Source: Euglena gracilis
Lineage: Eukaryota
Reading direction: 5' to 3'
NCBI GenBank assembly: GCA_039621445.1
Contig: CP154954.1
Coordinates: forward strand, 1,550,001 to 1,614,000
DNA length: 64,000 nucleotides
Shown piece by piece: positions 32,226-60,370 of this stretch. The translations under genes were made by a program, and so were the position numbers. The notes below the pieces were generated by a model that was not told where the DNA came from, made no database searches, and saw only the letters and a program-made list of their open reading frames with translations. Numbering within the stretch: the first letter of the stretch is position 1; each line of letters opens with the position of its first letter.

Positions 32226-32228
32226 TAA

Positions 32229-32302: not shown

Positions 32303-32347
32303 ATTGATTAGTAATTTCGTTATTTTTTATGATCATTTAATTTTTAA

Positions 32348-32431
32348 TACAGGCAGAGAGACTCGAACTCTCACATCATAAAGACACAGGAACCTAAATC
32401 CTGCGCGTCTACCAAATTCCGCCATGCCTGC
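32348..32431 (-). tRNA. trnL: tRNA-Leu(UAG)
   Basis: Reverse complement of 20992-21075. Confidence 0.93.
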
Positions 32432-32502
32432 TTTATCAATATTAATAAATGTTAATATTGTTTTTTATTTATTTTAAAACGTGTTAAATAAATTTTGTTA
32501 TT

Positions 32503-33221: not shown

Positions 33222-33839
33222 TTAGACCTTGCGTGAATAGAATTCGATTACTAAAAGTTCATTAACTATTAACGATATCGCTTTTCTATTGATTAAACCA
33301 ATAATTTTTGCTTCTAAGTTTTTTTTGTTAAGAGATAAATGTGGTGGTATTAATAGTAATTCTTTAGATTCTATGTTTTTTTGTATGACATTTTCTGATA
33401 CAGTACTTTTTTTAGGTTTTATAATACTTTTTGGTTGGCAAATAAAACTAGGTATATTGATAACTTTGTCATCTACACAAATGTGACCATGATTTATTAG
33501 TTGTTTTGCAGCCATTATTGTAGGTGCAAAACCTATTCGATGTACAATATTATCTAATCTCATTTCCAAAAAAGTTAGCAAAAATCTTCCGGATGATCCT
33601 TTTTTTTTCCTAGATTTTTTTACATAATTTAGAAGTTGTCTTTCGGTTATTCCGTAGTTAAATCGCAGTTTTTGTTTTTCTTTTAATCTTATGTTATATT
33701 TTGATATTTTTTTTTTCCTTTTAAAGGATGTTGCTGGTTGCCCTGGGGATTTTCTTTTCTTTGATGTTTTATTTGTAAGACTTGGAAGTTTTCCTATTCT
33801 ACGAACTATTCGCAATCGTGGTCCTCTATATCTTGACAT
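33222..33839 (-). CDS. rps4: 30S ribosomal protein S4
   Basis: Intact 205-aa ORF with S4 motifs. Confidence 0.97.
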   Translation of the reverse strand: MSRYRGPRLRIVRRIGKLPSLTNKTSKKRKSPGQPATSFKRKKKISKYNIRLKEKQKLRFNYGITERQLLNYVKKSRKKKGSSGRFLLTFLEMRLDNIVHRIGFAPTIMAAKQLINHGHICVDDKVINIPSFICQPKSIIKPKKSTVSENVIQKNIESKELLLIPPHLSLNKKNLEAKIIGLINRKAISLIVNELLVIEFYSRKV

Positions 33840-33915
33840 AGTTTTATCTATATTTTTTTTGATCTTAAATAACTTTTTCTATGTTAATTGTTTTTGTTGT
33901 TTAACATCTAATTGC

Positions 33916-33997
33916 GAGTTGTTGCCCGAGTGGTTAATGGGGGCGGATTGTAAATCCGCTAGTTCATCTTTCGCTGGTTCGAATCCAGCACGACTCA
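33916..33997 (+). tRNA. trnY: tRNA-Tyr(GUA)
   Basis: GCGGA-TT-GTA-AA-TCCGC arm. Confidence 0.94.
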
Positions 33998-34061
33998 AAA
34001 TATTTTTATATTTAATCAGACAGTTTTCGAGTTATAATAAATTTTTATTATATTTTTTATA

Positions 34062-34134
34062 GGTGGGTGTAGCCAAGTGGTAAGGCAAAGGACTGTGACT
34101 CCTTCATTCGCGGGTTCGATCCCCGTCATTCACC
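34062..34134 (+). tRNA. trnH: tRNA-His(GUG)
   Basis: AAGGA-CT-GTG-AC-TCCTT arm, G-1 present. Confidence 0.94.
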
Positions 34135-34149
34135 ATCTATTAATTTTTA

Positions 34150-34221
34150 GGCTCAGTAGCTCAGAGGTAGAGCAGGGGATTCATAAGCCCTTGGTCACAG
34201 GTTCAAATCTTGTCTGAGCCA
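34150..34221 (+). tRNA. trnM: tRNA-Met(CAU)
   Basis: Anticodon CAT, paired acceptor stem. Confidence 0.92.
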
Positions 34222-34225
34222 AACT

Positions 34226-34298
34226 GCGCTTTTAGTTCAATTGGTAGAACGTAGGTCTCCAAAACCTGATGTAGTAGGTTCGAATCCTACAGAGCGCG
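34226..34298 (+). tRNA. trnW: tRNA-Trp(CCA)
   Basis: TAGGT-CT-CCA-AA-ACCTG arm. Confidence 0.94.
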
Positions 34299-34325
34299 TT
34301 TATTTTTTTTCTTTATCTTAAATTT

Positions 34326-34398
34326 GCCCCCATCGTCTAGAGGCCTAGGACATCTCCCTTTCACGGAGGCAACGGGGATTCGAATTCCCCTGGGGGTA
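34326..34398 (+). tRNA. trnE: tRNA-Glu(UUC)
   Basis: TCTCC-CT-TTC-AC-GGAGG arm. Confidence 0.94.
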
Positions 34399-34404
34399 AT
34401 TTAT

Positions 34405-34477
34405 GCGGGTATAGCTCAGTTGGTAGAGCGTGGTCCTTCCAAGTCCAATGTCGCGTGTTCGAATCACGTTACCCGCT
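34405..34477 (+). tRNA. trnG: tRNA-Gly(UCC)
   Basis: Anticodon TCC, GCGGGTA/TACCCGC stem. Confidence 0.94.
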
Positions 34478-34537
34478 TTTAACTTTTTGTCTTTATAGAA
34501 AGTTAATTTTTAATTTTTATGATATTTTTAATATACT

Positions 34538-37500
34538 ATGGGATGTGCGATTCGTAAAATTTGGATCTTATTTTTAAAAAAATTTTTTGTCCATGTAAAT
34601 TAAATTTTTACTCTTAATTTTCCGATATTTTAGTAGTTTAGTTTTTATTATCGAAAGAATTTTTTTATCTTTAAATTTTCTTATGTTTATAAAGAAAAAT
34701 AATTTGGAACTTTAGTAGGAAATGTTTATACGATCATTTTGTAGTTTTTGTTATTTGTTTCCATGTTTTATTAAAAAATAATTTATTTATTCCTCTAATT
34801 TATTTTTGTTATTAATAAATGAATGATCATTTCATTAAAAGAATAATAAAGCGGATAAAAAAAACGAAAAATATATATTAAATTTTATAAGGATGATTTT
34901 TTAATCAGAATTATATCTAAGTTATTTTAAGTATTTTTTGCGTTTTCTAATCTTTTAAGATTATATAATTGAGTAGCCGTATGTTATTGAATTAACAAGT
35001 ACGGTTTCGGATAAAAAACTTTTTAATTATTAAAGTTGATTTTACCTGCCTTGGTATCGTGTTGTGATTTTTAGTTTTTTACTTATAAATGATATTTATA
35101 GTTTTAAAAATTTCCTTATAGTTTATTTTTTGATTTTTTAATAAAATTTTTAAAAATATTTGTTTTACATACTGTTGTTCTTAATGATCCAGGTCGTTTG
35201 ATTTCTGTTCATTTAATGCATACTGCATTAGTTTCAGGATGGGCTGGATCTATGGCCTTATATGAACTTGCTATTTTTGATCCTTCTGATGTTGCGCTAA
35301 ATCCTATGTGGCGCCAAGGAATGTTTGTTCTTCCTTTTATGACACGTTTAGGGGTAACAAAATCTTGGGGTGCTTGGAGTGTTACAGGGGAATCTTTTTC
35401 GGATCCAGGAATTTGGAGTTACGAAGGTGTAGCGGTAGCACATATAATTTTATCGGGTCTTTTATTTTTAGCTGCTATTTGGCATTGGGTTTATTGGGAC
35501 CTTGATTTATTTCGTGATCCAGCTAGTGGTGAGTTAAAGTTAGATTTACCTAGAGTATTTGGAGTTCATTTATTCTTGTCTGGAGCATTATGTTTAGCTT
35601 TTGGAGTTTTCCATGTTACGGGTGTTTTTGGTCCTGGTATTTGGGTTTCTGATCCTTATGGTTTAAGTGGGAGTGCGATTCGTTTTTAATGTTCTTTTAA
35701 TAATTTTATATCGTTAAGAGATTTTTTATGAAATTTTTGTTCAATTAGGTGAAAAACCTTTTATTTTATTGAAATTATTGCGTTATCAATAAGAACGATA
35801 ACTTATTTAATTTTTTAACTGTAAAAAATTAACGATTTTTGGATAGATAATCTAAATATTGGCTATGCCATAGTTATATATTTTCTAATTAAATTTTGTA
35901 TAATTTTTAATTTTTCTTCTAATAAGATTAATTTTTTAGCAAAATTGTGGATAAGTGTGTCCTCAAGAATTTCATTTAGCAACAAAAAGCAACGAAATAA
36001 TTTAGTTTCTATCTTTGACATTTTTTGATATGTCTATTTTTAACTTTTTTAGAGGGGATGATTTAAACGGAAAAATTTTTTATTAATTTTTATTGACTTA
36101 AATCACACTTATAAAAGTATCAAAATTATATTTTGATATATAAGTATTTGTTAAAATACAAGTACTTTATAAGTGAGTAGTTAAATGATTTAAAAATTTC
36201 ATATTTAATTTCGGATGAAAGATTTTTAATCTATTCTTGCAAATTGAACCTGTTATTCCTTCTTGGGGTGCTGAAGGTTTTGATCCGTATAATGTAGGTG
36301 GAATTGCTTCTTTGCGAGTTGTAAAAGTTCATACTTATGAGTTAAAAGTTTTTAACTTTTTCTTACTTTAATACCTTTTATTCAATTTTTAATTTTTAGT
36401 AATAAAAAGCCAGGTAGATTTTTTTACTAAATAGCCATTTTTGTTTTAGGTTAGTTATATTTTTTGCAATAATATTTGCAGTTTATTAATATTCTTGATA
36501 AAAACTTTTTTTACAGTTTTGTGAGAGTTTGGCTGTTAAAGAAGCATAAAATTTATTTTATTTTATTTTGTTATTGTAATTTTTATTTTTTGTGTATGAA
36601 AATAATAACTAATTAATTGTATTTTTTTCCAAAATTTTTTTTTACACTTTGATTCGAAATTTTTTCCTAAGTTTAGTATTTACGAATATTTTGTAAAAAA
36701 AGTTGAGTTAAAGATTTAAAAATAACTTATTTGTTTAGGTATTTTTAAATCTTTAAAATTTGTCCTAAATTTAGTATTAGGAAAAATTGATTAATAATTT
36801 TATTATTAATTAAAGCCGTGTGCATTTTTATTTTGCATGCACGGTTTTTTTGAGGAAATATAATAATTTATTTTCTATCAAGGCATCATATTGCTGCAGG
36901 TCTTTTAGGACTTATTGCTGGTGGATTTCATGTTTTAGTTCGCCCTTCTCAACGCTTGTTTGTACTTTTACGTATGGGGAATATTGAAACTGTTCTTTCT
37001 AGTAGTATAGCTGCGGTTTTTTGGTCTGCATTTGTTGTTTCAGGCACTATGTGGTACGGTTCTGCTTCTACACCTATTGAGCTATTTGGTCCTACTCGAT
37101 ACCAATGGGATAAAGGTTATTTTCAGGAAGAAATAGAAAGACGTGTTCAAGCTAGTTTATCTGATGGTTGTTCTTTGTCAGAAGCTTGGGGTGCTATTTC
37201 GCCTAAGTTAGCTTTTTATGATTATATTGGGAATAATCCAGCAAAAGGTGGATTATTTCGTTCTGGTCCTATGAATAATGGTGATGGTATAGCGACTGCA
37301 TGGTTAGGTCATGCAGTATTTATTGATAAGGAAGGTAATTCATTGTTTGTTCGTCGTATGCCTACTTTTTTTGAAACGTTTCCAGTAATATTATTAGATC
37401 AAAATGGTGTTGTTCGTGCCGATATTCCGTTTCGTCGTGCTGAGTCTAAATATAGTATTGAACAAGTAGGCGTTACTGTTCGTTTCTTCGGTGGTAGTTT

Positions 37501-37810
37501 CGATACTTTAAGTTTTAATGATCCTGCTACTGTGAAAAGATATGCACGACGTGCTCAGCTTGGAGAAATTTTTGACTTTAATCGTTCTATTTTACAGTCT
37601 GATGGTGTTTTTAGAAGTAGTCCAAGAGGCTGGTTTACTTTTGGTCATTTGTCTTTTGCTTTAATTTTCTTTTTTGGGCATATTTGGCATGGGGCAAGAA
37701 CTTTATTTAAATATTTGCTTGCTGGTATTGACCCTGATTTGGAGGAAGAGATTGAATTTGGTACTTTTGAAAAATTAGGTGATGATACAACTAAGAAAGA
37801 ATTAGTTTAA
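34538..37810 (+). CDS. psbB: Photosystem II CP47 (exons 34538-34544, 35047-35061, 35166-35672, 36241-36311, 36884-37810)
   Basis: Spliced product [19 protein letters not shown]...GGIASHHIAAG...; three group II introns and one 104-nt group III intron. Confidence 0.97.
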
Positions 37811-37873
37811 TTATTATTTAATTAGTAAATTTGTTTTAGGAAATGTGCAAAGTTGTGAAAATTTTTTATTTTT

Positions 37874-39319
37874 ATGGAAGCTTTAGTTTATACATTCTGT
37901 GTGCTACGAAGTTGTATTCTTTTTACTTTAGGTAATTAAATTTAAATTAATAAAAGGGTGGATTAAGACTTTTCATAAACGCCTTTATTAAATTTTTTGT
38001 GGGGTATATTTTTGTGCGGTTTACCTAGGACAAAACAAGATTATATGTTTTAATTTTGTATTTTTGCATATTACTTTACTTAATTTATGGAGTTTTTATA
38101 CTTTAAGCAATTAAAACTAATTTTATAGATTTTATAGTTTGGTAGTGAATTTATATTTTATTATTTTGATTTGATTTTTTCGTATTTTTTTATTTTAATT
38201 TAGTAGAAAAGGAAATTTTTACTATTTTGTAATTTTTAATTTCGATATTTTAATGTAATAATTATTTTTAAGTGCTTTTTTTTTTTTGTTCTTTTACACG
38301 GTTGTTATATCTTTTTGTCGAGGAAATTGTAATTACATTTAATTCTTTTATTTTTGAATTAATTTTTATTAAGATGATTTGGGATAGAAACGATTTCTGA
38401 AAAATATAATTTTTATTAAAGGTATCATATAATTACTTTTATGGTTATTTTAATTGATCGATAATTTTTTATTAATCTTGGATTGTCCACGATATCATTT
38501 CAGGCGGGTAAAGATTTTTTATCTTTATTCTTTTGATGATTTTAGTTTTTTGGGTGAGCCAGATGCTTAGGAATTAGCTTGTCCGGTTCTTTAGGGAATT
38601 TTTTTTACCTTATATTTGATTTTACTGTTTTTATTTTAATTAAGGATGATTTTTTTTGGATTGATTATTTTTTGTTGTAAATATTATTTTATTGCTTTTT
38701 TTTGTTGATAATATTGATATGTTTTGAAATTTTGAAGTTTCAATAAAATTTATGAAAAATTTGTATTTTTTGTAAATTATTTTTTTACTGTAGTCGTTTT
38801 CCTTTTTAATGCAGTTCTGTTAGGTCTTTTAGTATAATTTTATTTTACTGTAATTACTTAATCTTTATTAGTGTTTTTTTCATTTTTTTCAACGAAATCA
38901 ATTATAATTGTTTAAATATGTAATTTTTCTTCAATACGAATTATATTAATTTTATTTTTTTAGAAATTTCTAGTGTATTTATAAAGCTTTGTGATATACA
39001 TATCAAGCATAGTTTGGTGACAATTATTTTTTATTTTTAGTCTTTTTTTTTACATTGAGTTTTATATAATTTTTAATTTTCATAAATATTTTTGAAGTTT
39101 ATAAAACGTATTATATATATTTAAAATATATGAGGATTTTAACTACTAGAATAGTTGTTAATATTATTTTATTTAAAAATTTATATTTGAGCTTTGTGTA
39201 ATAGTATAATACTTGTAAAGTTCTTTTAGGAGGGTTTCCTTACTTAACTATTGATAGGTACTTTAGGCGTTATTTTTTTTGCTATTTTTTTCCGTGAATC
39301 TCCACGTATTAATAAATAA
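37874..39319 (+). CDS. psbT: PSII subunit T (exons 37874-37898, 39249-39319)
   Basis: [31 protein letters not shown]; 1350-nt intron GTGTG...AC. Confidence 0.95.
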
Positions 39320-39464
39320 TTATTCTTATTATCTTTCAATTTTCGATGTGATTTAATTTTTATTAACTTATAAAAAAGTTAATAAAAATTTTAAAAAGAA
39401 AAAGAAATAAAAAATAAATAAAATGAAATTTTCACAACAGTTTTAATTTGTTATTTATTTCATT

Positions 39465-39678
39465 TTATTTAATGTCAAGAATTACTGAAGAGTTGTATAT
39501 TTCTAAAATTATTGTTAAAAAAATTGCGAATAAAGTCATAAAAATTAACATTATTCCAGCTGTCCCCCAGCCAGGAAGAACTTTTCCATATTTAGAATTT
39601 AAAGGTTTTAATATTGTTCCTAAAGTAGTTGTTTTACCTTTAGAATTTGATGTTTTTGTTTTTTGAAATAGTTGTCAT
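39465..39678 (-). CDS. psbH: PSII phosphoprotein H (1-nt homopolymer error near 39657)
   Basis: Matches the intact copy at 14265-14477. Confidence 0.9.
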
Positions 39679-39729
39679 AATATTAAATTTAATAATTTTT
39701 AACTTTCTTTTGAAATTACCTATTTTATT

Positions 39730-39861
39730 TTAATTTTCATGTTCTTCAAAAGGATCTTTAAGTTTTCTTGACATTGGACCAAATCCCATGTAAATTGAGT
39801 ATATTGTTGTACTTATAATAAAAAAACCTAAAAAAATAGTTGATAAAAATGATATTATTTT
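39730..39861 (-). CDS. psbN: PsbN (start not resolved)
   Basis: ...YSIYMGFGPMSRKLKDPFEEHEN*. Confidence 0.88.
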   Translation of the reverse strand, partial: KIISFLSTIFLGFFIISTTIYSIYMGFGPMSRKLKDPFEEHEN

Positions 39862-40122
39862 AAATAAAAATTTATATTACTTTTATTTTAGTATATTATT
39901 TTTGGCTGACTTTTTAAAATTAAAGAATTTTTATTCCAATTCGAAAATTGTTGGTTTTGATTTAATGTGTTTTATTTATATTCGTATATATTTGAGAATT
40001 TTAAGTTTTTAATATAAAATTTTTTGTGTATTTATATTGCATGAAGTTAGGTATAATGAATTCTTTTATCTTTATAATGCATACTTGAAATTTTAATTCT
40101 TGTTTGATAAGTTTCTCTTTTT

Positions 40123-42213
40123 ATGAGTCGAGTTTACGATTGGTTGTGCGGACCGAATTTAGCATATTAGGTTATAATTCCTGAAGATTTTTACTTAGCG
40201 TTTTTTAGCTATTTGATAGTTTGAAGCCTAATTTCATATAAATTTAGAAAGTTATTTATAAAATTTTAATTATTTTATTGCTCCGTAATTTAGCATTTGT
40301 ATGTTAAATAGCAAATTTTTTGCTTGTTAAACTTTTTCGGTAATGGAAAAAACTTTGTTTGTTACAGTATAATTTTTACTATTTTTTTTTTGAAAAAAGG
40401 GTTAACTTAAAGTTTTATGTTTTTGTTTTAGGATATTATAATTTGAATCAAAAATTTAATAAAAATTTCTAAGTACTATTTTAATCTAAGTTTAAATATT
40501 GATTAAAAATAATTGGAAATACATAATATTTTTTATATATTTTAATTTTTATTAAATTAAATGTTATTTCTTAAAAGAATCAATATTTAAAATTACCTGT
40601 AAGTTTCAAAAGAAAATAAAAATTTTTATTTTTGTTACGAGTTATAAAGATCGCTTATCTAATTTTAGATAATTTTAGTTTTGACAAAAGCTGTGTATAT
40701 GTAGTAATATTTTTTAAGTTTGCGAATAAAGTATTATAATAAAGTTATACTTTAATTCATTTTAAATAATTGTAGTTGTGTTTTTCTAAGTTGTAGCTTC
40801 TCTGAATTAATTTTTTAAGATATAATAATTTGAATATCATTTCTTTTATATTTTTACAAAATTAAAAAATAATATTTAGGATTCTATTAAACGGTTTTAT
40901 TAAGGTAGGAAAAAATTCAATAAAATTCTTATTTTAATTGCGATTTGTTGTATTTGTTAATATGGAATTTTAACTGGTATTCGTTTTTAAGAATTATAAA
41001 GCAAAATGATTATCTATATCTTGTTTTGTTTTTAAGGGAGCTTGCTTACCTGTACGAGGAAAGATTGGAGATTCAAGCGATTGCTGACGATGTTAGTGCG
41101 ATTTGGTTTGTATTATTATTTTTCAATTCTAGATTATGATTATTTATTTACAAAAATCTTAATGAATAAATGCTTTAGTTTATAAATATTTAGTCTTAAT
41201 TTTAAGATAATTAATTGTTTTTATTAATAAATTTTTTTTTACATTTTAATTTGTTTTATAAAATTTTTTATGTTTTAAATTATAGATACTTTTTTATTTG
41301 AAATTTTATAGATTTGTTGGTTAGTAAAATGTTTATGATAAAATATTAGTAGTTTAAAAAGTTCTAAATTGTTTAAAATATATATGTTTTTTAATTATTT
41401 AATGTTATTTTTATTTTTTAAATATTTATTGAATGTATTTATATTTGTTGTTTTTATAATACTAAATAAATTTTTTATAATTCAGAGACTTTTTAAAAGT
41501 TTATATAAAAGATCGATAAAACTATTTTTTAATAATAATTTTTTTATAAAAAGCCTTTTGATTATTTGATTAGTTATTTTTCAATCTTGTAGGGTTGGAA
41601 AACAATCATTTTTTAAATGACTAGTTTTTGCAGTAAATATGTTCCTCCTCACGTAAACATTTTTTATTGTCTTGGTGGCATAACATTTACTTGTTTTATT
41701 ATTCAAGTAGCTACTGGTTTTGCAATGACTTTTTATTATCGTCCAACTGTTACAGAAGCTTTTCTTTCTGTTAAATATATTATGAATGAAGTTAATTTCG
41801 GGTGGCTTATTCGTTCAATTCATCGTTGGTCCGCTAGTATGATGGTTTTAATGATGATATTACATGTTTGCCGAGTTTATTTAACTGGTGGGTTTAAAAA
41901 ACCTAGAGAGTTAACTTGGGTTACGGGTATAATTTTGGCAATTTTAACTGTTTCTTTTGGTGTTACAGGTTATTCTTTACCTTGGGATCAAGTTGGTTAT
42001 TGGGCAGTTAAAATTGTAACAGGTGTTCCCGAAGCTATTCCATTAATTGGAAATTTTATTGTTGAGTTATTGAGAGGAAGTGTTAGTGTGGGACAGTCTA
42101 CTTTAACTCGTTTTTATAGTTTACATACATTTGTTTTACCTTTGTTAACAGCTACTTTTATGTTAGGACATTTTTTAATGATACGTAAACAAGGCATTTC
42201 TGGACCTTTATAA
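40123..42213 (+). CDS. petB: Cytochrome b6 (exons 40123-40145, 41055-41095, 41630-42213)
   Basis: [38 protein letters not shown]...[10 protein letters not shown]; introns start GTGCG. Confidence 0.97.
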
Positions 42214-45480: not shown

Positions 45481-47307
45481 ATGACATTAGATGTATCAAT
45501 TAGTACGTTACGAAGTTGCTTTTAGTTTATTAGGTATAAGTTAAAATAAAAGATAAGAAATAAAATTTTATTTATGTGTTTTTTTTAAGTTAAGTAAATT
45601 TTCCTTAAATTGTATGTTTTTGGCTATTCATATTAATTAAAAAATTGGTTAATCTAATTGGTTAATCTTAATATTTTCAATAATTTGTTAATAAGTTTAG
45701 TAATTTTTCAAGTAGAACGTAAATAGGTTTTATTTTGGATTTTTTTTTTAATAAAGAATAAACTTTTGACATATTTTTATTTAAAATTAAATGTTTAAGC
45801 TGTATGTTTTTTTTTACTTGTACAGTTTTTTAAGAGAAATTTTAGTTCGCTAATATATTTCTTTTTTCATTAAATTCTAGTTTAAATCTTTTTTCTTGAG
45901 TATTTATTTTTCAAAAGTTAATTTTTTAAATAATTTTCGTTTTTGGGGATTTTATTCTCTTTTTTAAACTTTTCTGTATGAAAAGTAAAATTATTTTATT
46001 TTTTGGTAATTGAAATTTATTTATTATTTTAGTAGACCAATAAAAGCAAAGAGAATAGGTTTTAATTTAATTTTCTATAAATTTTTATTCTAAAGAAAAT
46101 TTTACATTTTAGTTTTAATAAGTCTTGTTTTAGAGTTTTATATAATATAAAACAACCTAACCTTTTTTGCGATAGTATGTTGAAAAGCTAAATAAATCAA
46201 CAATTTTTGTTTAGTTTGTGAATAAAATTTTCAAAATTGAATTTATATTTTCTACTTTACTTATTCCTGAAAGAGTTTTTTGGGAAAAACGAGTTGAAGA
46301 AATTATTCTTCCTACTTTAAGTGGTCAGATGGGGGTTCTTAAAGACCATGTGTGACACATTATTAAAACGTTTGTTAATTTTATTAATTATAATTTTTTG
46401 ATAAATGCTTGTTTGAGATTTAACTTTACTTTTACTTTTAACCATATTAGTTAATTATTTTTATTTTCTGCATTAACATTTTGTTTGTGCGTGGTAGCTT
46501 TGAATATTTTCTAAAATTTAAAATTTACTTTTTTATAAATTATTTTTTATAAATAAGAAAAATTTAAAATTTTAAGATTAATATAATTTATAGTTTATTT
46601 TGAAAATGTATATTTAAGTCTTGTTTTAGAAGAATATATTTAAACTGTTATTTTATAACTATTTAAAGTGTTTTTACATGTTTTAGAAAAAATTTTTAAT
46701 AGTTTTAATTTTTTTAAAAACAATACTTGATAAACATAATTTGTAAGATATAATATTTGAATCTAAAAAATTTTTAAATTTGTATGCAATGGTAAGGAAT
46801 GTGTATTTTTATGTAAATTATTTACAAAATTTTTGTTTTTTTTTAGTACTTTTGATTCTATCACAATTTAGTTTTAGTCAATTTTTAAGCAAATTTTAAA
46901 AGATTTTTTGTTAAATGCCGTATGAGATTTAAATCTCCCGTACTGTATTGTTGGGGAAAAAATTAACTTAATTTATTAATTTTTAATGATAAATTTTTTT
47001 CTATCTAAATATTCCAATATTGACTGGATTAGATATAGGTATAATCTTAGTTCGTCAAAAGTCTTCTTCCGATTGGACTAGTTTGGTTGTAACAGGAGGT
47101 TTTGCATTAATTAATAGCAATAACGTTACTATATTAGTCAATGAAGCAGAATTTGGTTCCGAAATTAATGTAGAACAAGCACAGATTTCTTATAATTCAT
47201 CTAAACATGCTTTAGAAATGAATAAAGATATTAAGAGAAAATTTGAATTAACTTTAAATTTAAAAAAAGCACGTGCTAGATTCCAGGTCACTCAACTTAA
47301 AAAGTAG
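45481..47307 (+). CDS. atpE: ATP synthase CF1 epsilon (exons 45481-45502, 46261-46349, 47011-47307)
   Basis: MTLDVSI|IIPERVFWEKRVEEIILPTLSGQMGVLKDH|IPILTGLDIG...GGFALINSNNVTILVNEAE. Confidence 0.95.
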
Positions 47308-47578
47308 TTTAATTTATTGTTTTATTAAATTATACGTTTTTAATTTATGTTGATAGATTTTTTATAATAAAAATTTTTTCAATTATTAATAGTTTAAAAT
47401 TATGTTTGTTTTATAGTATATTATTACTTAAACTATAAAATAGTGTAGTTAGTGTATTGAAACTGACAGTTTGATTTAAACGTTTTTGGTTTCGATTCAC
47501 TCATTTATTCTTTAATTTAATTAAATTAAAATTCAAAATTCGACTTTTAGGCAAGAATTTAAGTAAAAAAAAAATGTT

Positions 47579-48296
47579 ATGTTATCCGAATATGATAATC
47601 TAAACTTTGAAAAGAGCGTTGAAGGTAAAGGTTCTTTTCTTAATAAAAACCAAATAGAATCTTATTTGGCCTTACGAAAAAAGAAAGGAAAAATATATAA
47701 TTTAGATTCTGAATTTTGGCGTGCTTTTTGTGAATCTCACAATATTAATATGGAATCTATTTTAAATTTATATATATCGAATAAATCTATTTCTAGTAAG
47801 GATTGTTAAAATACTATCTTATATTGTTGGACGAGATTACCTTAAAGGCAGAACCGCTAACTTTTATGCTTACATTAAAGTGGATAAACGATTAGATACG
47901 CGCTCGACTCGTTTTTTGGATTTGAGATTAAAAAAAGACTGTGAAGAGGTTACAGTTTGTGGAAATTATAGCGCAGCTAAGTCAGAAGAATATTCTATCG
48001 ATTATATAATAAAAATGGTTTTAAGTCAGAGAGCATATGGTATACAAGATTTTACTGATTCGTTAGTAATTAGTCCGTGTTTGTCTGTAAAATTAGATGA
48101 TCATTACCAAATGTTGTCACTTTGGAACCGCATGATAAAACTAGCTGAAAAAGGCAATATTTTTAAGGCTCTATCTCTTTTAAAAAAAGAAAGGCCAGAT
48201 TACTACATCAAAAAATTTGTAGCAATTAAAAAAAATTTAAATGCAATTTTTATGTCTTTTAAAAATGATAAAAAATTAAATAGGGAGGTTTTATGA
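47579..48296 (+). pseudogene. Rep-a: geminivirus-Rep-like HUH domain plus oligomerisation helices, motif II lost; one frameshift at ~47766-47806
   Basis: Joined ORF (~239 aa) aligns by eye to Rep-b: YIVGRDY..NFYAYIKVDKRLDTRSTRFLDL..GNYSAAKSEEYSIDYIIK..RMIKLAEKGNIFKALSLLKKERP. Confidence 0.72.
48283..48288 (+). promoter_or_regulatory. Shine-Dalgarno GGGAGG ahead of Rep-b; ATGA start-stop overlap at 48293-48296
   Basis: TAGGGAGGTTTTATGAAT. Confidence 0.8.
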
Positions 48297-49387
48297 ATTT
48301 ATTAAATACGAACAAAAATAACATTGATAATAATATGAGACGTATTTCATCAAAAAAAGTTTTTTTAACCTATTCTTATTGTTCCGCAGATCTTTCAGAA
48401 ATTTTAAATTTTTTTAAAAATAAATTTGAAGTAAAATATGGACTAGTTGATTATGCGTTGGTAAGATAGTTTCATAAAACCGGATACCCTCATGTACACT
48501 CATATTTCGTTTTTATTAAAAAAATAGACACTAAGGCAGCAAATTTTTTTGATATATATGTTGATTCTAAAACTTATAGTGCATATGTTCAAACAGTTAA
48601 TAACGAGAAAGATTTGTTGGACTATTTAACAAAACAAATATTTAACTTTGTAGATGCTTCAAAAAATTTCATGGCTTCTCCATCAATTTTGAAAAAGTAT
48701 GGTAAATATTTTGAATATTGTCCATTAGAAGAAAGGATGATTGAATTAGCAAAAAAAGGAGAGATAGCGGATGCTATGTTGTTGTTTGAAAAAGAAAAAC
48801 CTTCTGAATTTGTATATAAAGGTGATGCTATTGAAAAACGACTTAGAAACATATATTTAAACAAAAGGTTAGGAGTTAAAGCAAAAATTAATTTTAATTA
48901 CTATGTAAACCCTCGAGATATAAGGTGGATGTTAGACATTTATGAATCTTATCTGAATATGGGTGAAAATAAAGTATTTTTAATTTTAGGCGTTGAGCTT
49001 AGGTATTTAATAGATTTTTTTGAATCTTATTTGCAATTCAAAGGCTTTTATCTTCTAGTAGTTAAGGAAGCTAAGGATTTACTGCGATTTAGAAATACTT
49101 GTCATTACGATGCGATAATTTTTTCAGACTCTAGCATTTTAGAGTATCAAAATGTAGATGAGCTAAAAAATTTATTTAACTCTTTAGAAACAACGTTAAA
49201 AGTTCATAATCGAAAAAATAGTGTTAAAGTACTTTTATCTCCTGCTTTACCAAAAGCTATAATGTCGTCAAAACCTTATAAAGTTTTGGAACAATTTTTT
49301 TTTTTTTTTTTAATTGAAATGGAAGGCATACTACCTTATCAATTAAATGCCGATGATAAATTACTTCCCCCACATTTTCATAATTAA
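48293..49387 (+). CDS. rep: Rep-b: geminivirus-like rolling-circle replication initiator (HUH endonuclease plus degenerate SF3 helicase); one in-frame TAG at 48467-48469
   Basis: RISSKKVFLTYSYC (motif I), VR*FHKTGYPHVHSY (motif II), NFFDI (GRS-like), LLDYLTK (motif III), all in frame with track ORF 48614-49387. Confidence 0.82.
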
Positions 49388-49543
49388 GAAATGTAAAAAT
49401 CAAAGGAATACAGAGAACTTGAAAGTAAAACTAAAGTTTATATTCAAGAATTCTTAAAAAAAGCTAATATGAATGATGAAAATGAAGGAAATGCTAATCA
49501 AAAAAATACTAATTAATACGTTTTTATTATATGTTATTATTTT

Positions 49544-49772
49544 ATTAGTAATAAAAATATTACTAATTTGTTATTTGTTATAAATATGTTATATTTATTC
49601 TAGGGCGGAAAATTAGTGGTAACATTAATTTGTTAAAAAATGCCTCTTGACATCAAAAGTTCGAATTAATTTTGAAAAGCATGAGGCATTTTTTTAACAA
49701 TTATTTTAAGTTTAATAAAACTTAAAATTTTTTTTTAATAAATTTTTTTTTTTCTGTCCGCCCGGAGAATAA
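49544..49772. repeat. Cluster of hairpins and nested inverted repeats (candidate origin or terminator)
   Basis: ATTAGTAATA-AAAA-TATTACTAAT; TTGTTAAAAAATGCCTC...GAGGCATTTTTTTAACAA; TTTTAAGTTT-AATA-AAACTTAAAA; outer TTATTCTAGGGCGGA...TCCGCCCGGAGAATAA. Confidence 0.85.
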
Positions 49773-50122
49773 AAAAATTTAGAAAATTATTGCTCTATTA
49801 TTTTTGGGAGAATAAAATGAACAATTTAAAAATAAAATTTTAAAAAAAAAAATAAAGTTTGTTTATAATTATATACTAGCGGACACGTTTTTGTTATTTT
49901 TTGTTATAAAGTTGTGATTAAATCATTATAAATATTATTACTAGTATAATTATTATCAAATTAATTTTTATTTGTTGGCTAACTTGTTATTAAATTGTTA
50001 TTAAATAGCTAATTTGTTGTATGAGCATTAAGCGTTAAATTAATTGGGTAGGTCAACAATAAACTATTGTTGAAAGAATATAGTTATAGTTAATTGGACA
50101 AATTTTTTATGGGAGAATAATT

Positions 50123-51834
50123 ATGGTTCAAAAATTAAGAAAAAAATACAAATTCAAAATTAACACCACAAGTTCGAGATATTATGGTAGTTATAATATA
50201 ACACGTAATTGGAGAATTTTAATAAGGACAAATTTTCAATCTTTAATAGAAATGGATTATTCTTTTATTAAAAAATGGCATGCAATAATAAACGACGATA
50301 AAATTTCTTTTATTATGTATACCATATGCAAATACGTGGATTTTCAGAAAGAAAACGATATTTTTAGTAAAGCTTACTTTGAACTTAAGAAAATTTGTCG
50401 GCCACAGTATTTAGAAGACTTTTTTATTTTTGATAAAAATACAATTATAAGTATCGAAAAAGCTAAAGGGGATAGTCCTGGCAATGTTGGTGGTTTTATT
50501 ATTAATTGCCGAGACCCCGAAGAGGAACTTTTTTGGAATAGAATACCGCGCTATGAATCTAAAAATAATAACTGTTTAAGTTTTAAATTTATTACTCAAT
50601 ATAATTTAATTGAAAAAACAAGGGGAAATTATTTTCTACCTAAAATTTTCCTTGAAGTTTTAAAAAAAGGTCCGGAAGAGATTGATAAAGAAAAAAGAAA
50701 AACTGTTTTAGCAAAAAAAATCGATAATGACGAAGAAATAGAAAAAATAGAAATAAAAAAAAAAAAACAATTTGAAATTAATATCTTTTTCGAGGATTCA
50801 GAATTTTTAGCAATAACCGAAAAATATACAAAAAAGTGTGAGGATTTAATAAATATTAACAATAAAGGGAAAAAAATAAGAGATTTATTTTGCAATTATA
50901 TTTTAGAATTATTAATTCTAGAAATAAATATTTTAAATTCTCAAAGTAAACCAAAATATTCGGATGTTTTTATTTGTACTTATAAAAAAAAAAGAACAAT
51001 AATGAAATAGAGTGGTATTTTAATTGGATGTCTATTGATAGAATCCTTAAACAATTTTTATATAAATCAATTAAACCGTGGCAAAATAAAAATATTGACG
51101 ATATTAATCAAGGAGAAATTTATAATATAATTACTAATAAATCACTTACAGATAATACAATAAATTCTGTTAAACGTTCTTTTCAAAATAGATTGAATGA
51201 AAATGTTAACTTAACGAACGTAAGAAAATCATACAAAAAAATAAAATTTGTTTCGTTTAGTTTAACTAAGTTTTATAGCAATGAAAATAACGTTTTTTTT
51301 GTAAATTAAAAATTGAGATTTTCGTATGTGATAGTTTTAATACTAGCCTTATAAGAGATTTTCTTAATTTAATTACAAGTGAAGATATTCTATGGATAAT
51401 GTATTCGGTAGAACCTGTAATATTAATACATACTGATTCCAAAGATAAAATTCTTCAAGAGACATATCTAAAATTAGAATGTAAAGCAGTAAAATCACAG
51501 CTATATTTAAATATATATGTGATATTTGATGAAAAAAGAGTATGGACTAAAAATTTAGTTGAAAGCTTTTTTTCTACTATTAAAAATGGTAAAATTTTAA
51601 ATATATCAAACGTACCAAAACTAGGAGGTCTTTGTTTTTGTTATGTTCTTAATAACCTTTTGCTAAAAGCAAATAAAAAAAAATCAATTAGCTGAAATTA
51701 AAATATATCAGCATACAAAATATGAAATTCCTTCCAAATATAAAATCAAATTTATCAACGAATCGCCATTATTTTTAAGAGAATATACTGGGTCTTTGAA
51801 CTTCTTATATATATTTTACTTAGTATGTTACTAG
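50123..51834 (+). pseudogene. Rep-c: one ~570-codon ORF broken by three homopolymer frameshifts; degenerate circo/nanovirus-Rep-like protein
   Basis: Track ORFs 50123-51010, 51028-51309 and 51399-51695 join across A10 (50984), T8 (51293) and A9 (51675); remnants RNWRILI, AYFELKK, IEKAKG, KPWQ, VIFDEKR, IKNGKI, YVLNN; upstream GGGAG. Confidence 0.55.
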
Positions 51835-51882
51835 ATAATATAACTAATAAATAATTAAGTTATTATATTATTCCATTAAAAT

Positions 51883-52070
51883 TTTTTAAAGTCCACCAAG
51901 AATAAAATTCTAGTGGACACGTTTGTTATTAAATTGTTATTATTAGTATAATTATTATAAAATTATTTATTAAAATATAAATAATTTAGTTAGCTAGTTG
52001 TTATTAAAATGTTATTAACTTTTTTAAAGTTCACCGAGAATAAAATCCTAGTGGACACGTTTTTGTTATT
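51883..52070 (+). repeat. ~138-bp unit plus partial tandem copy, related to 49876-50005
   Basis: CTAG(T/C)GGACACGTTT(TT)GTTATT at 49876, 51910 and 52048. Confidence 0.85.
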
Positions 52071-52332
52071 TTTATTGGTTTTAGTTTAAGGTCAGCAGGA
52101 ACAACTTTTATAACCTTTTATTATGGTATCGTACTTTAATAAATCTAAATTTAAGGAATTCTGCAACATATTCTAAAGATAAAGGGCATTTTGGAGATGT
52201 AAGAAATACTTTCCTAGCTGACAGTCGGTATTTAGCGTTTTTACCAACGTTTTTTTCAAATTTATTAAAGGAACTTTTCTTTGATTTTACTTTTTTCTAA
52301 CGTAATTTTTTGATTAGTTTTATTTGGAGTTA

Positions 52333-52380
52333 TAACCTATTATTAATCTATTAACCTATTATTAATCTATTAACTTATTA
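52333..52380 (+). repeat. 19-bp tandem repeat TAACCTATTATTAATCTAT, about 2.5 copies
   Basis: Directly visible. Confidence 0.75.
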
Positions 52381-53110
52381 TTATATTATTATTATTATTA
52401 GGGGGCAATTTACTTAGCAAATTCTCGGTCGTTACTGACAAAACGGGGTATGGTTTTGTAAACATTAACCACGCAATAACACAATCACAATATTGCACTA
52501 ATAACTTAAAAAAGTCACTCACATGATATTATTACTAAATAAATGTAATCTGCCTCAGGCAAACGGTTTTGAACTATGTGTATGAAAAGTAATGAGAATT
52601 CTTTACAATTAAAGGGATGTAACATGTAAATCGTTAAATACGACTGCATACAACTCCTATTTAAGATACTATGTACGGGAAATAAGCAAAAAATAATACA
52701 TTATTCAAGGAAAACTACTATGGTACGTAAAAAAGATATATTAAATGAAAGGTTAAAAATTACACAATAGAAACAGACGTGTCCCGTAAGGTGAGGCAAA
52801 AAGTTGCGTTCCGTTTAGCGGCTAAAAACATATTTTTGATGTATAATAAAGTTTCATCTTCATTTACTGTGGAGGATATTAGTTATTCTTTACTTGAGAA
52901 GCTGAAGCCATATGGTGTATTATCGTAGATACGTATATTGACTGTGAAACTAACGTAACTGACTTATCTAGAGTAAACGTGAGTATTATATTTTTAGACC
53001 TCAAATAGACAAAAATTAGTAGCAAAACTTATTAATAATAATAATGTAAATTATCTATAAATAACTGTAAAGTGATTTTTCGAATATAATTTTTATTTTA
53101 TTATTAAAAT

Positions 53111-58679
<5,569 letters not shown>

Positions 58680-58970: not shown

Positions 58971-59239
58971 TGCTGTAAAATGTAAAATATTTTTAATGTC
59001 TCAAGTAAAATTAATACAAAGTTTAAAAAAAATAAAAAAATAATAAAAGAAAAAACGTAAACAGGAAAAATTTAAAAAAGGAAAAAAATATAGTTATAAA
59101 AAAATAATTTTTTAAATAAAAAAAAGGTAATATTTTTGGACAAATTTAAACTTTTAATTTTTTCAAAATTATATTAATAAATAAGATTTGTATTTTTACT
59201 GTATAGAGTTAATTATTAAAAAGGAAGTTTTATATGCTT

Positions 59240-59743
59240 TTAAGAAGGGGGAAAGGGGGGGGTAAATAATAAATTATAAAAAAGCAAAGGGGGGGGGGGG
59301 GGGAAAATTATAAAAAAATTAAAAAGGGATGGGGGGGGAATATAAGTAAGAATTTTTTTCTTAAAGGGGGAAGGGGGGGGTCAAAAAATTAGAAATAAAT
59401 TTGGAAAAAACTTTAAAATAAATATACAATTGAAAAATTAGGGGGGGGGGAAGAATGTAAGGGAGCTCATAGGGGGGGGGGGTAAAAAAAAAATAAAGAA
59501 AAAAAAAAGGGGGGGGGGCAAATTATGGGTGGGATGGGGGATGGGTGGGGGGGGGGGGAAGGGGGGGGGGTACGGAGGAAATTTAGGGGGGGATTTTTTA
59601 TTTAAAATTTCGGGGAAAGGGGGGGGGGGGGGGGGGGGGGGGGGGAAATGGGGGGGGGGGGGGGGGGGGAAAAAGGGGGGGGGGGGGAAATTTTAAAGAT
59701 TTTATACAAAAATTTTAGAATTTAAAAAAGGGGGGGGGGGTGG

Positions 59744-59774
<31 letters not shown>

Positions 59775-59816
59775 AAGGGGGGGGGGGGGGGTGGGATTAT
59801 AATGGGGGAAAATTAA

Positions 59817-59870
<54 letters not shown>

Positions 59871-59917
59871 GGGGGGGGGGGGGGGGGGGGTACGGGGGGG
59901 GGGGGGGGGGTTAAAAA

Positions 59918-59954
<37 letters not shown>

Positions 59955-59998
59955 GGGGAGGGGGGGGGGGGGGGTAGGGGGGGGGGGGGGGGGGGGGT

Positions 59999-60052
<54 letters not shown>

Positions 60053-60270
60053 GGGGGGAAATTGGGGGGGGGGGTGGGGGGGAGGGTAAAAAGGGGGGGG
60101 GGGGGGGGTAGGGGGGGGGGATATATATAAAACGGGGGGGGGGGGGGGGGGGGGGGGGTTTTAAAAAAAAGGGGGGGGGGGGGTTGGGGCACAAATGATG
60201 GGGGGGGGGAAAGGGGGGGGGGGGGGGGGGGGGGGGAGGGGTAAAGGGGGGGGGGGGGGGGGGGGGGGGT

Positions 60271-60301
<31 letters not shown>

Positions 60302-60370
60302 AAAGGGGGGGGGGGGGTTATAGGGGGGTGGGGGGGGGGGGGGGGGGTTGGGGGGGGGGGGAAATGGGGG
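59240..60370. repeat. Poly-G low-complexity tract, probable sequencing or consensus artefact
   Basis: Long G runs interspersed with AT remnants. Confidence 0.9.

What the first reader, a model, noticed from the sequence alone, without database searches (positions are those of the whole stretch)
47579..52070. Three-Rep cassette with hairpins and direct repeats: candidate integrated rolling-circle replicon in the plastome
Seen: a ~4.5-kb intron-free, A-rich block inside a genome whose neighbouring genes are mostly intron-laden and T-rich. Order: Rep-a (dead nuclease) overlapping Rep-b (intact nuclease motifs), a hairpin cluster, then Rep-c flanked by direct repeats, all on one strand; Rep-b and Rep-c have SD-like sites. 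Inference: a plastid plasmid or CRESS-like element integrated, perhaps as two modules (gemini-type and circo/nano-type), and is decaying or domesticated. One catalytic Rep plus non-catalytic Rep homologues would be an unusual system, and free circles might still excise through the repeats.
Basis: partly seen in the sequence, partly recalled or inferred. Interest (0 to 1): 0.85.

Follow-up and report, generated by a model that had tools for sequence, protein, structure and literature searches.

The report
Dead Rep gene relics in Euglena plastome
The spacer between atpE and rbcL in this Euglena gracilis-type chloroplast DNA holds broken remains of geminivirus-like rolling-circle replication (Rep) genes, which suggests that a small circular plasmid or virus once integrated into the chloroplast genome.

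Summary
The core observation holds, but the details differ. The window is Euglena gracilis-type plastid DNA. The atpE-rbcL spacer (47,308-53,110) contains four Rep-derived pieces, not three.

- **Rep-b (48,293-49,387):** a near full-length geminivirus-type Rep. Pfam Gemini_AL1 scores 35 bits against a cut-off of 24, and 348 relatives were found. Motifs I, II and III are kept. It is cut by an in-frame TAG at a near-invariant Glu. It also lacks the Walker A motif, the motif C Asn and the arginine finger.
- **Rep-a (47,766-48,296):** a truncated paralogue without the HUH histidines.
52,296-52,111 on the minus strand and 52,749-52,925 on the plus strand.
- **"Rep-c" (ORF295):** no Rep similarity in any test.

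The direct repeats and the hairpin cluster are real. Evidence for replication-origin-like nonanucleotide hairpins is mixed.

My best reading is decayed relics of integrated Rep-only circular replicons of about 2.2 kb. I found no paper describing this. The window itself is a noisy, chimeric assembly, and the read-level tests could not be run.

The parts
47020..47307 (+). Last exon of atpE (left boundary, context)
   Evidence: Pfam ATP-synt_DE_N (29.5 bits) and ATP-synt_DE
47323..47414 (+). Direct repeat, copy 1 of the pair flanking the Rep-a/Rep-b module. It holds ATACGTTTTTAAT at 47,332.
   Evidence: the repeat finder family D2: 92 nt, 71% identity, spacing 2,184. Gapped alignment; motif search.
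47409..47440 (+). Origin-like hairpin 1: 9-bp A+T stem with TATTATTAC (fits NANTATTAC) in a 14-nt loop, about 160 nt upstream of ORF76/Rep-a
   Evidence: Script: only two such hairpins in 26,700-59,000 on both strands, and both are in this block. First-order Markov simulations give P 0.002. The fold energy is not better than shuffles (z -0.85).
47579..47809 (+). ORF76, unknown. Its position fits a degenerate N-terminus of Rep-a in another frame, but this is not shown.
   Evidence: No Pfam hit. BLASTP against the Rep-b N-terminus gives E 34. The exact protein is on 8 contigs of other assemblies.
47766..48296 (+). Rep-a: truncated Rep paralogue covering the region from motif II to the central domain. 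The HUH histidines are replaced; Tyr and Lys of motif III are kept. There is no helicase domain.
   Evidence: BLASTP against Rep-b: E 2e-13, 27% identity. Profile of 13 environmental Reps: E 3.8e-29. Alignment A2. The same 176-aa protein is in UniRef/nr.
48293..49387 (+). Rep-b: near full-length geminivirus-type Rep with an HUH nuclease, a central domain and an SF3-helicase-like domain. It is broken by an in-frame TAG at 48,467-48,469. Walker A, the motif C Asn and the Arg finger are lost.
   Evidence: Pfam PF00799 at 32-35 bits. PDB geminivirus Rep domains at E 2e-6. 348 relatives. Alignment A1. Model and Foldseek.
49388..49516 (+). Former 3' tail of the Rep-b frame. It is open in the UniRef E. 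gracilis protein (281 aa) but interrupted by two stops in this window.
   Evidence: P0002 compared with the window translation
49507..49598 (+). Direct repeat, copy 2 of the pair flanking the Rep-a/Rep-b module. It holds ATACGTTTTTATT at 49,516.
49590..49775 (+). Compound hairpin cluster. An outer G+C stem (GGGCGGA / TCCGCCC) encloses three inner hairpins. One inner loop region reads GGTAACATTAA, close to the GGTAACATTAC at the origin of the nearest viral-type relative.
   Evidence: DNA fold -36.9 kcal/mol, z -6.8, 0 of 200 shuffles as good. L001 origin. The 11-nt likeness is not statistically significant on its own.
49876..49901 (+). Direct repeat DR-A (CTAGCGGACACGTTTTTGTTATT...)
   Evidence: (D3)
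49925..49950 (+). Origin-like hairpin 2: 6-bp stem with TATTATTAC in the loop, flanked by paired TTGTTAT words
   Evidence: The fold energy is not significant (z +0.6).
50123..51695 (+). ORF295, ORF93 and ORF98: three open stretches (306, 107 and 134 codons) that overlap end to start at an A10 run and a T8 run. This was probably one gene of about 520 codons. Its function is unknown; it is not a Rep.
   Evidence: Script. No hits in Pfam, NCBIfam, PHROGs, the protein collection, the Atlas, viral contigs or genome contigs. The AF2 model is unusable (pLDDT 32).
51891..51930 (+). Direct repeat DR-B with a hairpin (GTCCAC...GTGGAC), followed by a degenerate copy of the hairpin-2 region
   Evidence: Fold -7.7 kcal/mol, z -3.5.
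52029..52072 (+). Direct repeat DR-C (its hairpin arm is degenerate)
52111..52296 (-). Rep-d: N-terminal Rep stub (motif I region, ...KVFLTSPKC...) on the opposite strand, cut off next to DR-C
   Evidence: Profile of 13 environmental Reps: E 3.3e-8; reversed-sequence control best E 0.69. Pfam Gemini_AL1 reaches only 13.3 bits, E 0.082.
52527..52535 (+). Third TATTATTAC, 222 nt upstream of Rep-e, with only a 4-bp stem
52749..52925 (+). Rep-e: degenerate N-terminal Rep stub (...NIFLMYNKV...), ending 186 nt before rbcL
   Evidence: Profile E 1.7e-5. No Pfam hit.
53111..53176 (+). Start of rbcL exon 1 (right boundary, context)
   Evidence: Translation reads MSPQTETK.... Later exons hit Pfam RuBisCO_large.

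Best explanation
The atpE-rbcL spacer of this Euglena gracilis-type plastome holds the decayed remains of small Rep-encoding circular replicons. These were plasmid-like or CRESS-DNA-virus-like, carried a geminivirus-type HUH Rep, and integrated into the plastid chromosome.

SHOWN
- Four Rep-derived segments are present: one near full-length and three truncated.
- None can act as a rolling-circle initiator-helicase. The only copy with the catalytic His-x-His and Tyr motifs is cut by a stop codon before motif II. It also lacks the ATP-binding P-loop, the motif C Asn and the arginine finger.

INFERRED
- The elements entered as circles of about 2.2 kb. Two modules are each bounded by direct repeats 2,184 and 2,172 nt apart. 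That pattern is expected from insertion of a slightly longer-than-unit copy or of a rolling-circle concatemer.
- The modules were then rearranged: one Rep stub is inverted and two are truncated.
- They are now eroding or, at most, partly co-opted.
- ORF295/93/98 is cargo of unknown function and is not a Rep.
For: - **Identity and location.** The 257-aa ORF is 96% identical (228 of 238 residues) to the UniRef protein named 'Uncharacterized 33.1 kDa protein in rbcL-atpE intergenic region', Euglena gracilis. Rep-a equals a 176-aa UniRef/nr protein. The block is therefore in an independently sequenced plastome.
- **Rep-b is a Rep.**
  - Pfam Gemini_AL1 scores 32.4 and 35.1 bits against a cut-off of 24.
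  - Six PDB geminivirus Rep nuclease-domain sequences match at E 2.3e-6 to 7.8e-3.
  - HMMER over 1.84 billion representatives finds 348 hits at E<=1e-3 and 7 at E<=1e-30. The full-length hits are 30-34% identical.
  - 10 of 10 top hits tested carry Gemini_AL1.
  - Six of those top hits were looked up, and their longest contigs are 1,524-2,743 bp.
  - The model (pLDDT 78) matches the TYLCV and WDV Rep domains at TM 0.81-0.85. It also matches Vientovirus Rep and SF3 helicases.
- **Inactivation of Rep-b.** The TAG sits at the column of a Glu kept in at least 90% of rows. Walker A (GxPGTGKT) reads GVELRYLI, Walker B DD reads SD, the motif C Asn is Ser, and the Arg finger is absent.
- **The stop recurs.** The exact 58-aa product that ends at the TAG is on 8 other contigs.
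- **Other Rep pieces.** Against a profile built without the window's own row, Rep-a scores E 3.8e-29, Rep-d 3.3e-8 and Rep-e 1.7e-5. The reversed-sequence control gives a best E of 0.69.
- **Decay.** Compared with the UniRef protein, this window has two extra stops in the tail. Related fragments from other sources are also short ORFs of 89, 114 and 91 aa, and one shares the dead P-loop.
- **Module boundaries.** AYACGTTTTTRTT matches exactly only inside the block, 3 times. CTAGYGGACACGTTT occurs 3 times against 0.07 expected.
- **Ancestral adjacency.** A paper on Eutreptiella lists 'petB atpB atpE / rbcL rpl23...' as one conserved cluster with no ORF between (PMC5572947, passages only).
Against: - The open frames are far too long for chance in 24% G+C DNA. 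The composition-only chance of staying open is about 1.7e-14 for 305 codons, 4.9e-14 for 295 and 1.2e-8 for 176. So the insertion is recent, or some pieces are still under selection.
- Rep-a and ORF76 are letter-identical in 8 other contigs and in nr.
- Rep-b and ORF295 have Shine-Dalgarno-like sites, and Rep-a/Rep-b overlap in ATGA.
- A fragment from another source with 56% identity keeps Glu, HUH and YxxK. The gene may therefore have been functional for a long time.
- The window is a noisy, chimeric assembly. Single stops and frameshifts downstream of 48,670 are not independently confirmed, because those exact proteins are not in the collection.
- No free element, no named close relative and no other euglenid plastome could be examined.
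Confidence: 0.8

Rival explanations
1. Domestication. The truncated products are expressed plastid proteins with a new role that is neither nuclease nor ATPase, for example DNA binding or regulation. The candidates are ORF176 (Rep-a), the 281-aa C-terminal part of Rep-b (central domain plus dead helicase), and possibly ORF295.
For: - The open frames are improbably long for this base composition.
- ORF76 and Rep-a are identical across 8 other contigs and nr.
- A related fragment shares the same dead P-loop (GSEHRYLI against GVELRYLI) at 68-87% identity. This suggests the ATPase-dead form has persisted.
- Shine-Dalgarno-like sites and an ATGA overlap are present.
Against: - No expression data could be obtained.
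- This window has two nonsense codons in the tail and 10 of 238 replacements relative to the UniRef protein.
- The related fragments are themselves split into short ORFs.
- The two other Rep stubs are plainly dead.
- No dN/dS could be computed, because no DNA of relatives was available.
Confidence: 0.15
2. Live element. The block still excises through its direct repeats and replicates as free circles, driven by one catalytic Rep helped by non-catalytic paralogues.
For: - Direct repeats bound both modules, with spacings of 2,184 and 2,172 nt that fit replicon sizes.
- Nonanucleotide-bearing hairpins lie upstream of the modules.
- Motifs I-III of Rep-b are intact.
Against: - The stop codon lies before motif II and recurs in other assemblies.
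- Walker A, motif C and the Arg finger are lost.
- Hairpin energies are no better than shuffles.
- The repeats are only 71-72% identical, which is poor for homologous excision.
Confidence: 0.03
3. Artefact. The Rep block is contamination or a chimeric join made by the assembler and is not part of the plastome.
For: The window is clearly chimeric and noisy. It has poly-G junk at 59,200-60,370, palindromic duplications at 95.9-99.9% identity, and a 4-kb G+C-rich insert.
Against: - The UniRef name places the 281-aa ORF in the rbcL-atpE spacer of E. gracilis.
- 20 listed sequencing runs from 13 studies hold the stretch, 19 of them at least half of its sampled words.
- The base composition matches the plastome.
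Confidence: 0.02

Closest known systems
Geminiviridae / Genomoviridae-type Rep (Pfam PF00799 Gemini_AL1; solved nuclease domains of TYLCV and wheat dwarf virus)
   Same: - Rep-b has the same motif I (FLTY..C), motif II (HxH), motif III (YxxK) and a central helical domain.
- It has an SF3-helicase-like C-terminal fold.
- The nuclease-domain model superposes at TM 0.81-0.85 and rmsd about 2 A.
   Different: - It lies in a plastid chromosome, not in a 2.5-3 kb ssDNA virus.
- It is interrupted by a stop, and its P-loop is dead.
- No capsid gene was found.
- The nearest relatives are only 30-34% identical and are unnamed environmental sequences.
- No canonical TAATATTAC lies in a G+C stem.
Rep-only small circular replicons from environmental data (for example IMG/VR contig L001, 2,508 bp)
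   Same: - L001 is the best viral-collection match: 30% identity over residues 17-279, E 1e-29.
- It is a circle that encodes only a Rep of about 540 aa (the frame runs across the contig ends).
- Its nonanucleotide is on the same strand as Rep and upstream of it, as in the window.
- Its size is close to the 2.17-2.18 kb spacing of the repeats.
   Different: - The L001 Rep is intact, with a GKT P-loop.
- Its origin is a G+C-rich 10-bp stem with TAACATTAC.
- The window holds only weak A+T stems and one decayed look-alike.
Plasmids of the red alga Pyropia (Porphyra) pulchra and of phytoplasmas, whose Reps derive from CRESS-DNA viruses (Kazlauskas et al. 2019, PMC6668415; Krupovic et al. 2009, PMC2702318; passages read)
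   Same: In concept: geminivirus-like Rep genes carried by plasmids in algae or bacteria rather than by viruses.
   Different: - Not tested, because no sequences of these plasmids were available.
- tblastn of Rep-b against 72,556 PLSDB plasmids gave no match.
- Neither paper mentions Euglena, and neither discusses plastids or chloroplasts.
Endogenous geminivirus-like elements in plant nuclear genomes (PMC7758297, search listing only)
   Same: Degenerate, partly tandem Rep-plus-origin relics fixed in a cellular genome.
   Different: Those sit in the nuclei of angiosperms. This one sits in the secondary green plastid of a euglenid.

Membership tests
HUH Rep of geminivirus type (Gemini_AL1) | Pfam PF00799 at or above the gathering score | tested here: met
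   Rep-b scores 32.4 bits whole and 35.1 bits for the N-terminal 136 aa, against a cut-off of 24. It is not met by Rep-a (no hit), Rep-d (13.3 bits) or Rep-e (no hit).
HUH Rep of geminivirus type (Gemini_AL1) | Motif I (FLTY), motif II (HxH) and motif III (YxxK) | tested here: met
   In Rep-b, L25, T26, H67, H69, Y111 and K114 fall on invariant columns of A1. Rep-a lacks both His but keeps Y and K.
HUH Rep of geminivirus type (Gemini_AL1) | Uninterrupted reading frame | tested here: not met
   TAG at codon 59 (48,467-48,469), on a near-invariant Glu column. The same 58-aa product is on 8 other contigs.
CRESS-DNA Rep (nuclease plus SF3 helicase) | Walker A P-loop GxxxxGK[ST] | tested here: not met
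   The window reads GVELRYLI where 13 of 13 relatives have GK[TS]. The UniRef protein reads GGELRYLI.
CRESS-DNA Rep (nuclease plus SF3 helicase) | Walker B, motif C Asn and arginine finger | tested here: not met
   Walker B DD reads SD, the motif C Asn is Ser, and the RR is absent. The helicase-like fold is still recognised by Foldseek (Vientovirus Rep, AAV Rep, SV40 LTag, E1). That model leans on the alignment of relatives.
CRESS-DNA / geminivirus-like replicon | Origin stem-loop with the nonanucleotide NANTATTAC in the loop | tested here: inconclusive
   Two loops with TATTATTAC have 9-bp and 6-bp stems, and they are the only such cases in 32 kb (simulation P 0.002 and 0.008). Their fold energies are no better than shuffles, and their flanks are not alike.
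CRESS-DNA virus | Capsid gene | tested here: not met
   ORF76, ORF295, ORF93, ORF98 and ORF50 have no match to any ORF of 80 related viral contigs (best E 0.53), nor to Pfam, PHROGs or NCBIfam.
   - Pfam gives no Rep family at E<=1.
- BLASTP against Rep-b gives a best E of 4.
- The Rep profile finds nothing in 50,090-51,692 at E<=10.
- The AF2 model is unusable.
Integrated (endogenous) mobile element in an organelle genome | Flanked by host genes that are adjacent in relatives | tested here: inconclusive
   atpE and rbcL flank the block. atpE/rbcL adjacency in Eutreptiella comes from passages of one paper. No other euglenid plastome sequence could be examined.
Active rolling-circle replicon | Free circular copies or junction reads | not testable with these tools

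The most novel reading that the evidence does not exclude
A geminivirus-like rolling-circle replicon once lived and replicated inside the secondary green plastid of euglenids. It entered the plastid chromosome as concatemeric units of about 2.2-2.5 kb. Traces of this remain: the nonanucleotides at 47,419, 49,933 and 52,527 are 2,514 and 2,594 nt apart, and each module is bounded by direct repeats. On this reading the ATPase-dead and nuclease-less Rep derivatives (ORF176, ORF281) and the unknown gene of about 520 codons are kept as working plastid proteins. That would make this the first domesticated CRESS-type Rep in an organelle.
Probability: 0.15. Interest if true: 0.75.

Novelty: new member of a known kind. 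Interest (0 to 1): 0.5.

Why it matters
The E. gracilis plastome is a classic reference genome, and its 176-aa and 281-aa ORFs between atpE and rbcL are filed as 'uncharacterized'. The annotated ORFs omit the nuclease domain or carry it in degenerate form, which may be why Pfam does not flag them. Reading through a single stop shows that they are pieces of geminivirus-type Rep genes.

This is a record that a Rep-encoding circular replicon reached the stroma of a secondary plastid and recombined with its genome. HUH-Rep elements are hardly documented in that compartment. It extends the host and compartment range of the plasmid-virus continuum around Geminiviridae and Genomoviridae. It also gives a concrete locus for asking whether plastid plasmids or viruses exist in euglenids, and it explains a lineage-specific expansion of a conserved gene junction.

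In nine full-text searches and passages of four papers I found no paper making this link. Subscription journals and the 1993 genome paper (not held) were not searched.

Tried and rejected
- **ORF295 as a Rep or capsid: rejected.**
  - Pfam, NCBIfam and PHROGs gave nothing significant. The best were RecU at 16.8 bits against a cut-off of 176.75, and ParE-like at 15.5 bits.
  - The protein collection gave no hit at near lengths (162-517 aa) or shorter lengths (30-161 aa). A product of about 520 aa would fall there.
  - The Atlas gave no usable hit. The AF2 model had pLDDT 32.
  - IMG/VR and genome-contig scans found nothing. phmmer against the ORFs of 80 viral loci gave a best E of 0.53.
- **ORF76 as the Rep-a N-terminus:** no support (E 34).
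- **Canonical TAATATTAC:** 3 in the window against 2.75 expected, so no enrichment.
- **Three nonanucleotide regions as homologous units:** the flanks do not align.
- **Did Rep-a arise by duplication of Rep-b?** The two group together on 133 shared columns with support of only 41, and they do not group on the wider alignment. This stays unresolved.
- **Related DNA.** Two metagenome scans and one genome-contig scan with Rep-b or P0007 found nothing. A profile scan of genome contigs was not possible. PLSDB tblastn gave no match.
- **Other.** No whole genome is held for this window. Earlier findings of this scan returned nothing. A PsbB search in the PDB gave no Euglena-identical chain with which to gauge the error rate.

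Full report
**What the window is.** The 257-codon ORF at 48,614-49,387 is 96% identical (228 of 238 residues) to a UniRef/nr protein. That protein is named 'Uncharacterized 33.1 kDa protein in rbcL-atpE intergenic region' of Euglena gracilis. The surrounding ORFs are plastid genes: rpoC1/C2, psbB, rps4, petB, atpB, atpE and rbcL.

The window is not a clean plastome sequence.
- Large blocks are duplicated, partly in inverted order, at 95.9-99.9% identity.
- 59,200-60,370 is runs of G.
- About 4,163-8,032 is 45-63% G+C, with no rRNA or Pfam match.
- No listed sequencing run holds more than 0.84 of the sampled words of the block.

Single-base features of the window therefore need outside support.

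**The observation.**
- The spacer runs from the atpE stop (47,307) to the rbcL start (53,111).
- It is A-rich on the + strand between 47,500 and 52,000.
- It has no tRNA and no Rfam match.
- The three copies of CTAGYGGACACGTTT at 49,876, 51,910 and 52,048 are the only ones in the window, against 0.07 expected.
- The hairpin cluster at 49,590-49,775 folds at -36.9 kcal/mol (z -6.8, 0 of 200 shuffles as good).
- Rep-a's stop overlaps Rep-b's ATG (ATGA). GGGAGG and GGGAGA precede Rep-b and ORF295.

**Rep-b.** Read from 48,293 to 49,387 with X at the single in-frame TAG (48,467-48,469), the frame gives a 364-residue protein.
- It hits Pfam Gemini_AL1 above the gathering score: 32.4 bits whole and 35.1 bits for the N-terminal 136 residues, against a cut-off of 24.
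- It matches six solved geminivirus Rep nuclease-domain sequences at E 2.3e-6 to 7.8e-3.
- A full HMMER pass over 1.84 billion representatives gives 348 hits at E<=1e-3 and 7 at E<=1e-30. Several cover residues 16 to about 340 at 30-34% identity.
- Ten of ten top hits tested carry Gemini_AL1.
- The six top hits looked up sit on contigs whose longest copy is 1.5-2.7 kb, and none carries a name.

In the alignment of Rep-b with 13 such relatives (A1):
- Motif I (FLTY), both His of motif II, and Tyr and Lys of motif III fall on invariant columns.
- The TAG falls on a Glu column kept in at least 90% of rows.
- Walker A reads GVELRYLI, where the relatives have GxPGTGK[TS].
- Walker B DD reads SD, the motif C Asn is Ser, and the arginine finger is missing.

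An AF2 model built on that alignment (pLDDT 78) matches the TYLCV and WDV Rep domains at TM 0.81-0.85. It also matches the Vientovirus Rep hexamer and SF3 helicases. The helicase part of the model leans on the relatives.

The stop is not peculiar to this window. The exact 58-residue product ending at it is on 8 other contigs. The public annotation starts the 281-aa ORF at the first Met after it.

**Rep-a.** The open stretch 47,766-48,293 aligns to Rep-b residues 76-190 (27% identity, E 2e-13). It matches a profile of the 13 environmental Reps at E 3.8e-29.
- It keeps Tyr and Lys of motif III and the central domain.
- It has other residues at both His of motif II.
- It ends before any helicase domain.
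- The same 176-aa protein is in UniRef/nr, and the 138-aa form is on 8 other contigs.

Whether Rep-a arose by duplication of Rep-b is open. They group together on the 133 shared columns with support of only 41, and they do not group on the wider alignment.

**New Rep relics.** I searched all six-frame pieces of the window with the Rep profile.
- 52,296-52,111 on the minus strand (motif I region, E 3.3e-8).
- 52,749-52,925 on the plus strand (E 1.7e-5).

Both E-values come from the profile built without the window's own row. The best reversed-sequence control scored E 0.69. Pfam alone gives only 13.3 bits for the first and nothing for the second. Both stop after about 45 residues, one next to repeat DR-C and the other 186 nt before rbcL.

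**'Rep-c'.** ORF295 shows no Rep similarity by any test, and its AF2 model is unusable (pLDDT 32). It has no relative in any collection tried. The open stretches 50,090-51,007, 50,986-51,306 and 51,291-51,692 overlap end to start, exactly at an A10 run and a T8 run. ORF295, ORF93 and ORF98 therefore look like one frame of about 520 codons broken by two homopolymer shifts. In this noisy assembly those shifts may be errors, because the exact proteins are not in the collection. A product of that length would have escaped my length-limited searches.

**Repeats and origin-like sites.**
- A second pair of direct repeats (47,323-47,414 and 49,507-49,598; 71% identity, spacing 2,184) brackets the Rep-a/Rep-b module.
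- The DR-A/DR-C pair (72% identity, spacing 2,172) brackets the ORF295 module.
- The shared core AYACGTTTTTRTT has exact matches only in the block, 3 times.
- In 32 kb of unduplicated plastid sequence, on both strands, only two NANTATTAC words sit in a loop closed by a perfect stem of 6 bp or more. Both are in this block, on the Rep strand, upstream of a module: 47,419 (9 bp) and 49,933 (6 bp). The simulation gives P 0.002 and 0.008.
- Their fold energies are no better than shuffles, and their flanks are unrelated.
- 42 of 80 related viral contigs carry TAAYATTAC.
- The closest of these, L001, is a 2,508-bp Rep-only circle. It has TAACATTAC in a G+C stem upstream of Rep on the same strand.
- TTGTTAT words are clustered in pairs around the repeats: 11 of 47 window matches lie in 49,568-52,069.

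I take these features as suggestive of decayed origins and iterons. They are not proof.

**Interpretation.** The most economical reading is that Rep-only circular replicons of roughly 2.2 kb integrated between atpE and rbcL, were rearranged, and are decaying.

The atpE-rbcL junction is listed as contiguous in basal euglenids (PMC5572947, passages).

The long surviving frames argue that the event is not ancient, or that some pieces are retained. The composition-only chance of staying open is 1e-8 to 1e-14. Fragments from other sources at 56-87% identity point the same way: one keeps Glu, HUH and YxxK, and another shares the dead P-loop. A live, excising element is very unlikely given the state of every Rep copy, but read-level tests could not be run.

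**Literature.**
- Nine full-text searches turned up no paper that links these Euglena ORFs to Rep.
- Passages of two key papers on Rep evolution do not mention Euglena (PMC6668415; PMC2702318).
- The passages I read in two euglenid plastome papers did not make the link either (PMC6207741; PMC5572947).
- The 1993 genome paper is not held, subscription journals are not covered, and supplements were closed.

Noticed in passing
window 59,200-60,370: About 1.2 kb made almost entirely of long G runs, inside the rbcL intron/exon region. This looks like a sequencing or assembly artefact rather than biology.
   Followed up: partly
window 1-4,163; 20,457-24,618; 28,806-32,966; 8,032-16,851; 33,253-42,039; 16,852-25,290: The rpoC2-tRNA-psbB-rps4 block occurs two or three times, partly as a palindrome centred near 26,700. 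Identity between copies is 95.9-99.9%. This suggests a chimeric long-read assembly, or nuclear copies of plastid DNA.
   Followed up: partly
window about 4,163-8,032: A segment with 45-63% G+C and many overlapping ORFs on both strands sits between plastid tRNA clusters. It has no rRNA, tRNA or Pfam match, and its origin is unknown. It may be nuclear DNA or a contaminant joined to plastid sequence.
   Followed up: partly
window 49,295-49,311: A T17 run replaces what reads FFKEKG in the UniRef protein (FFFFFL here). It is probably another homopolymer artefact inside the Rep-b helicase-like domain.
   Followed up: no
window 51,291-51,692: The last open stretch of the ORF295/93/98 frame gives a very weak NCBIfam match to the Holliday-junction resolvase RecU (16.8 bits against a cut-off of 176.75, E 0.0045). 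This is most likely noise, but a recombinase would fit a mobile element.
   Followed up: no
L001 1,240-1,500: The intergenic region of the closest viral-type relative carries several CCGCTA...TAGCGG hairpins. Their arms resemble those of the window's repeats (GTCCGCC...AGCGGAC). This could be a shared Rep-binding architecture or coincidence.
   Followed up: no
window 26,000-28,000: G+C is extremely low (12.6-13.1%) at the centre of the palindromic arrangement.
   Followed up: no
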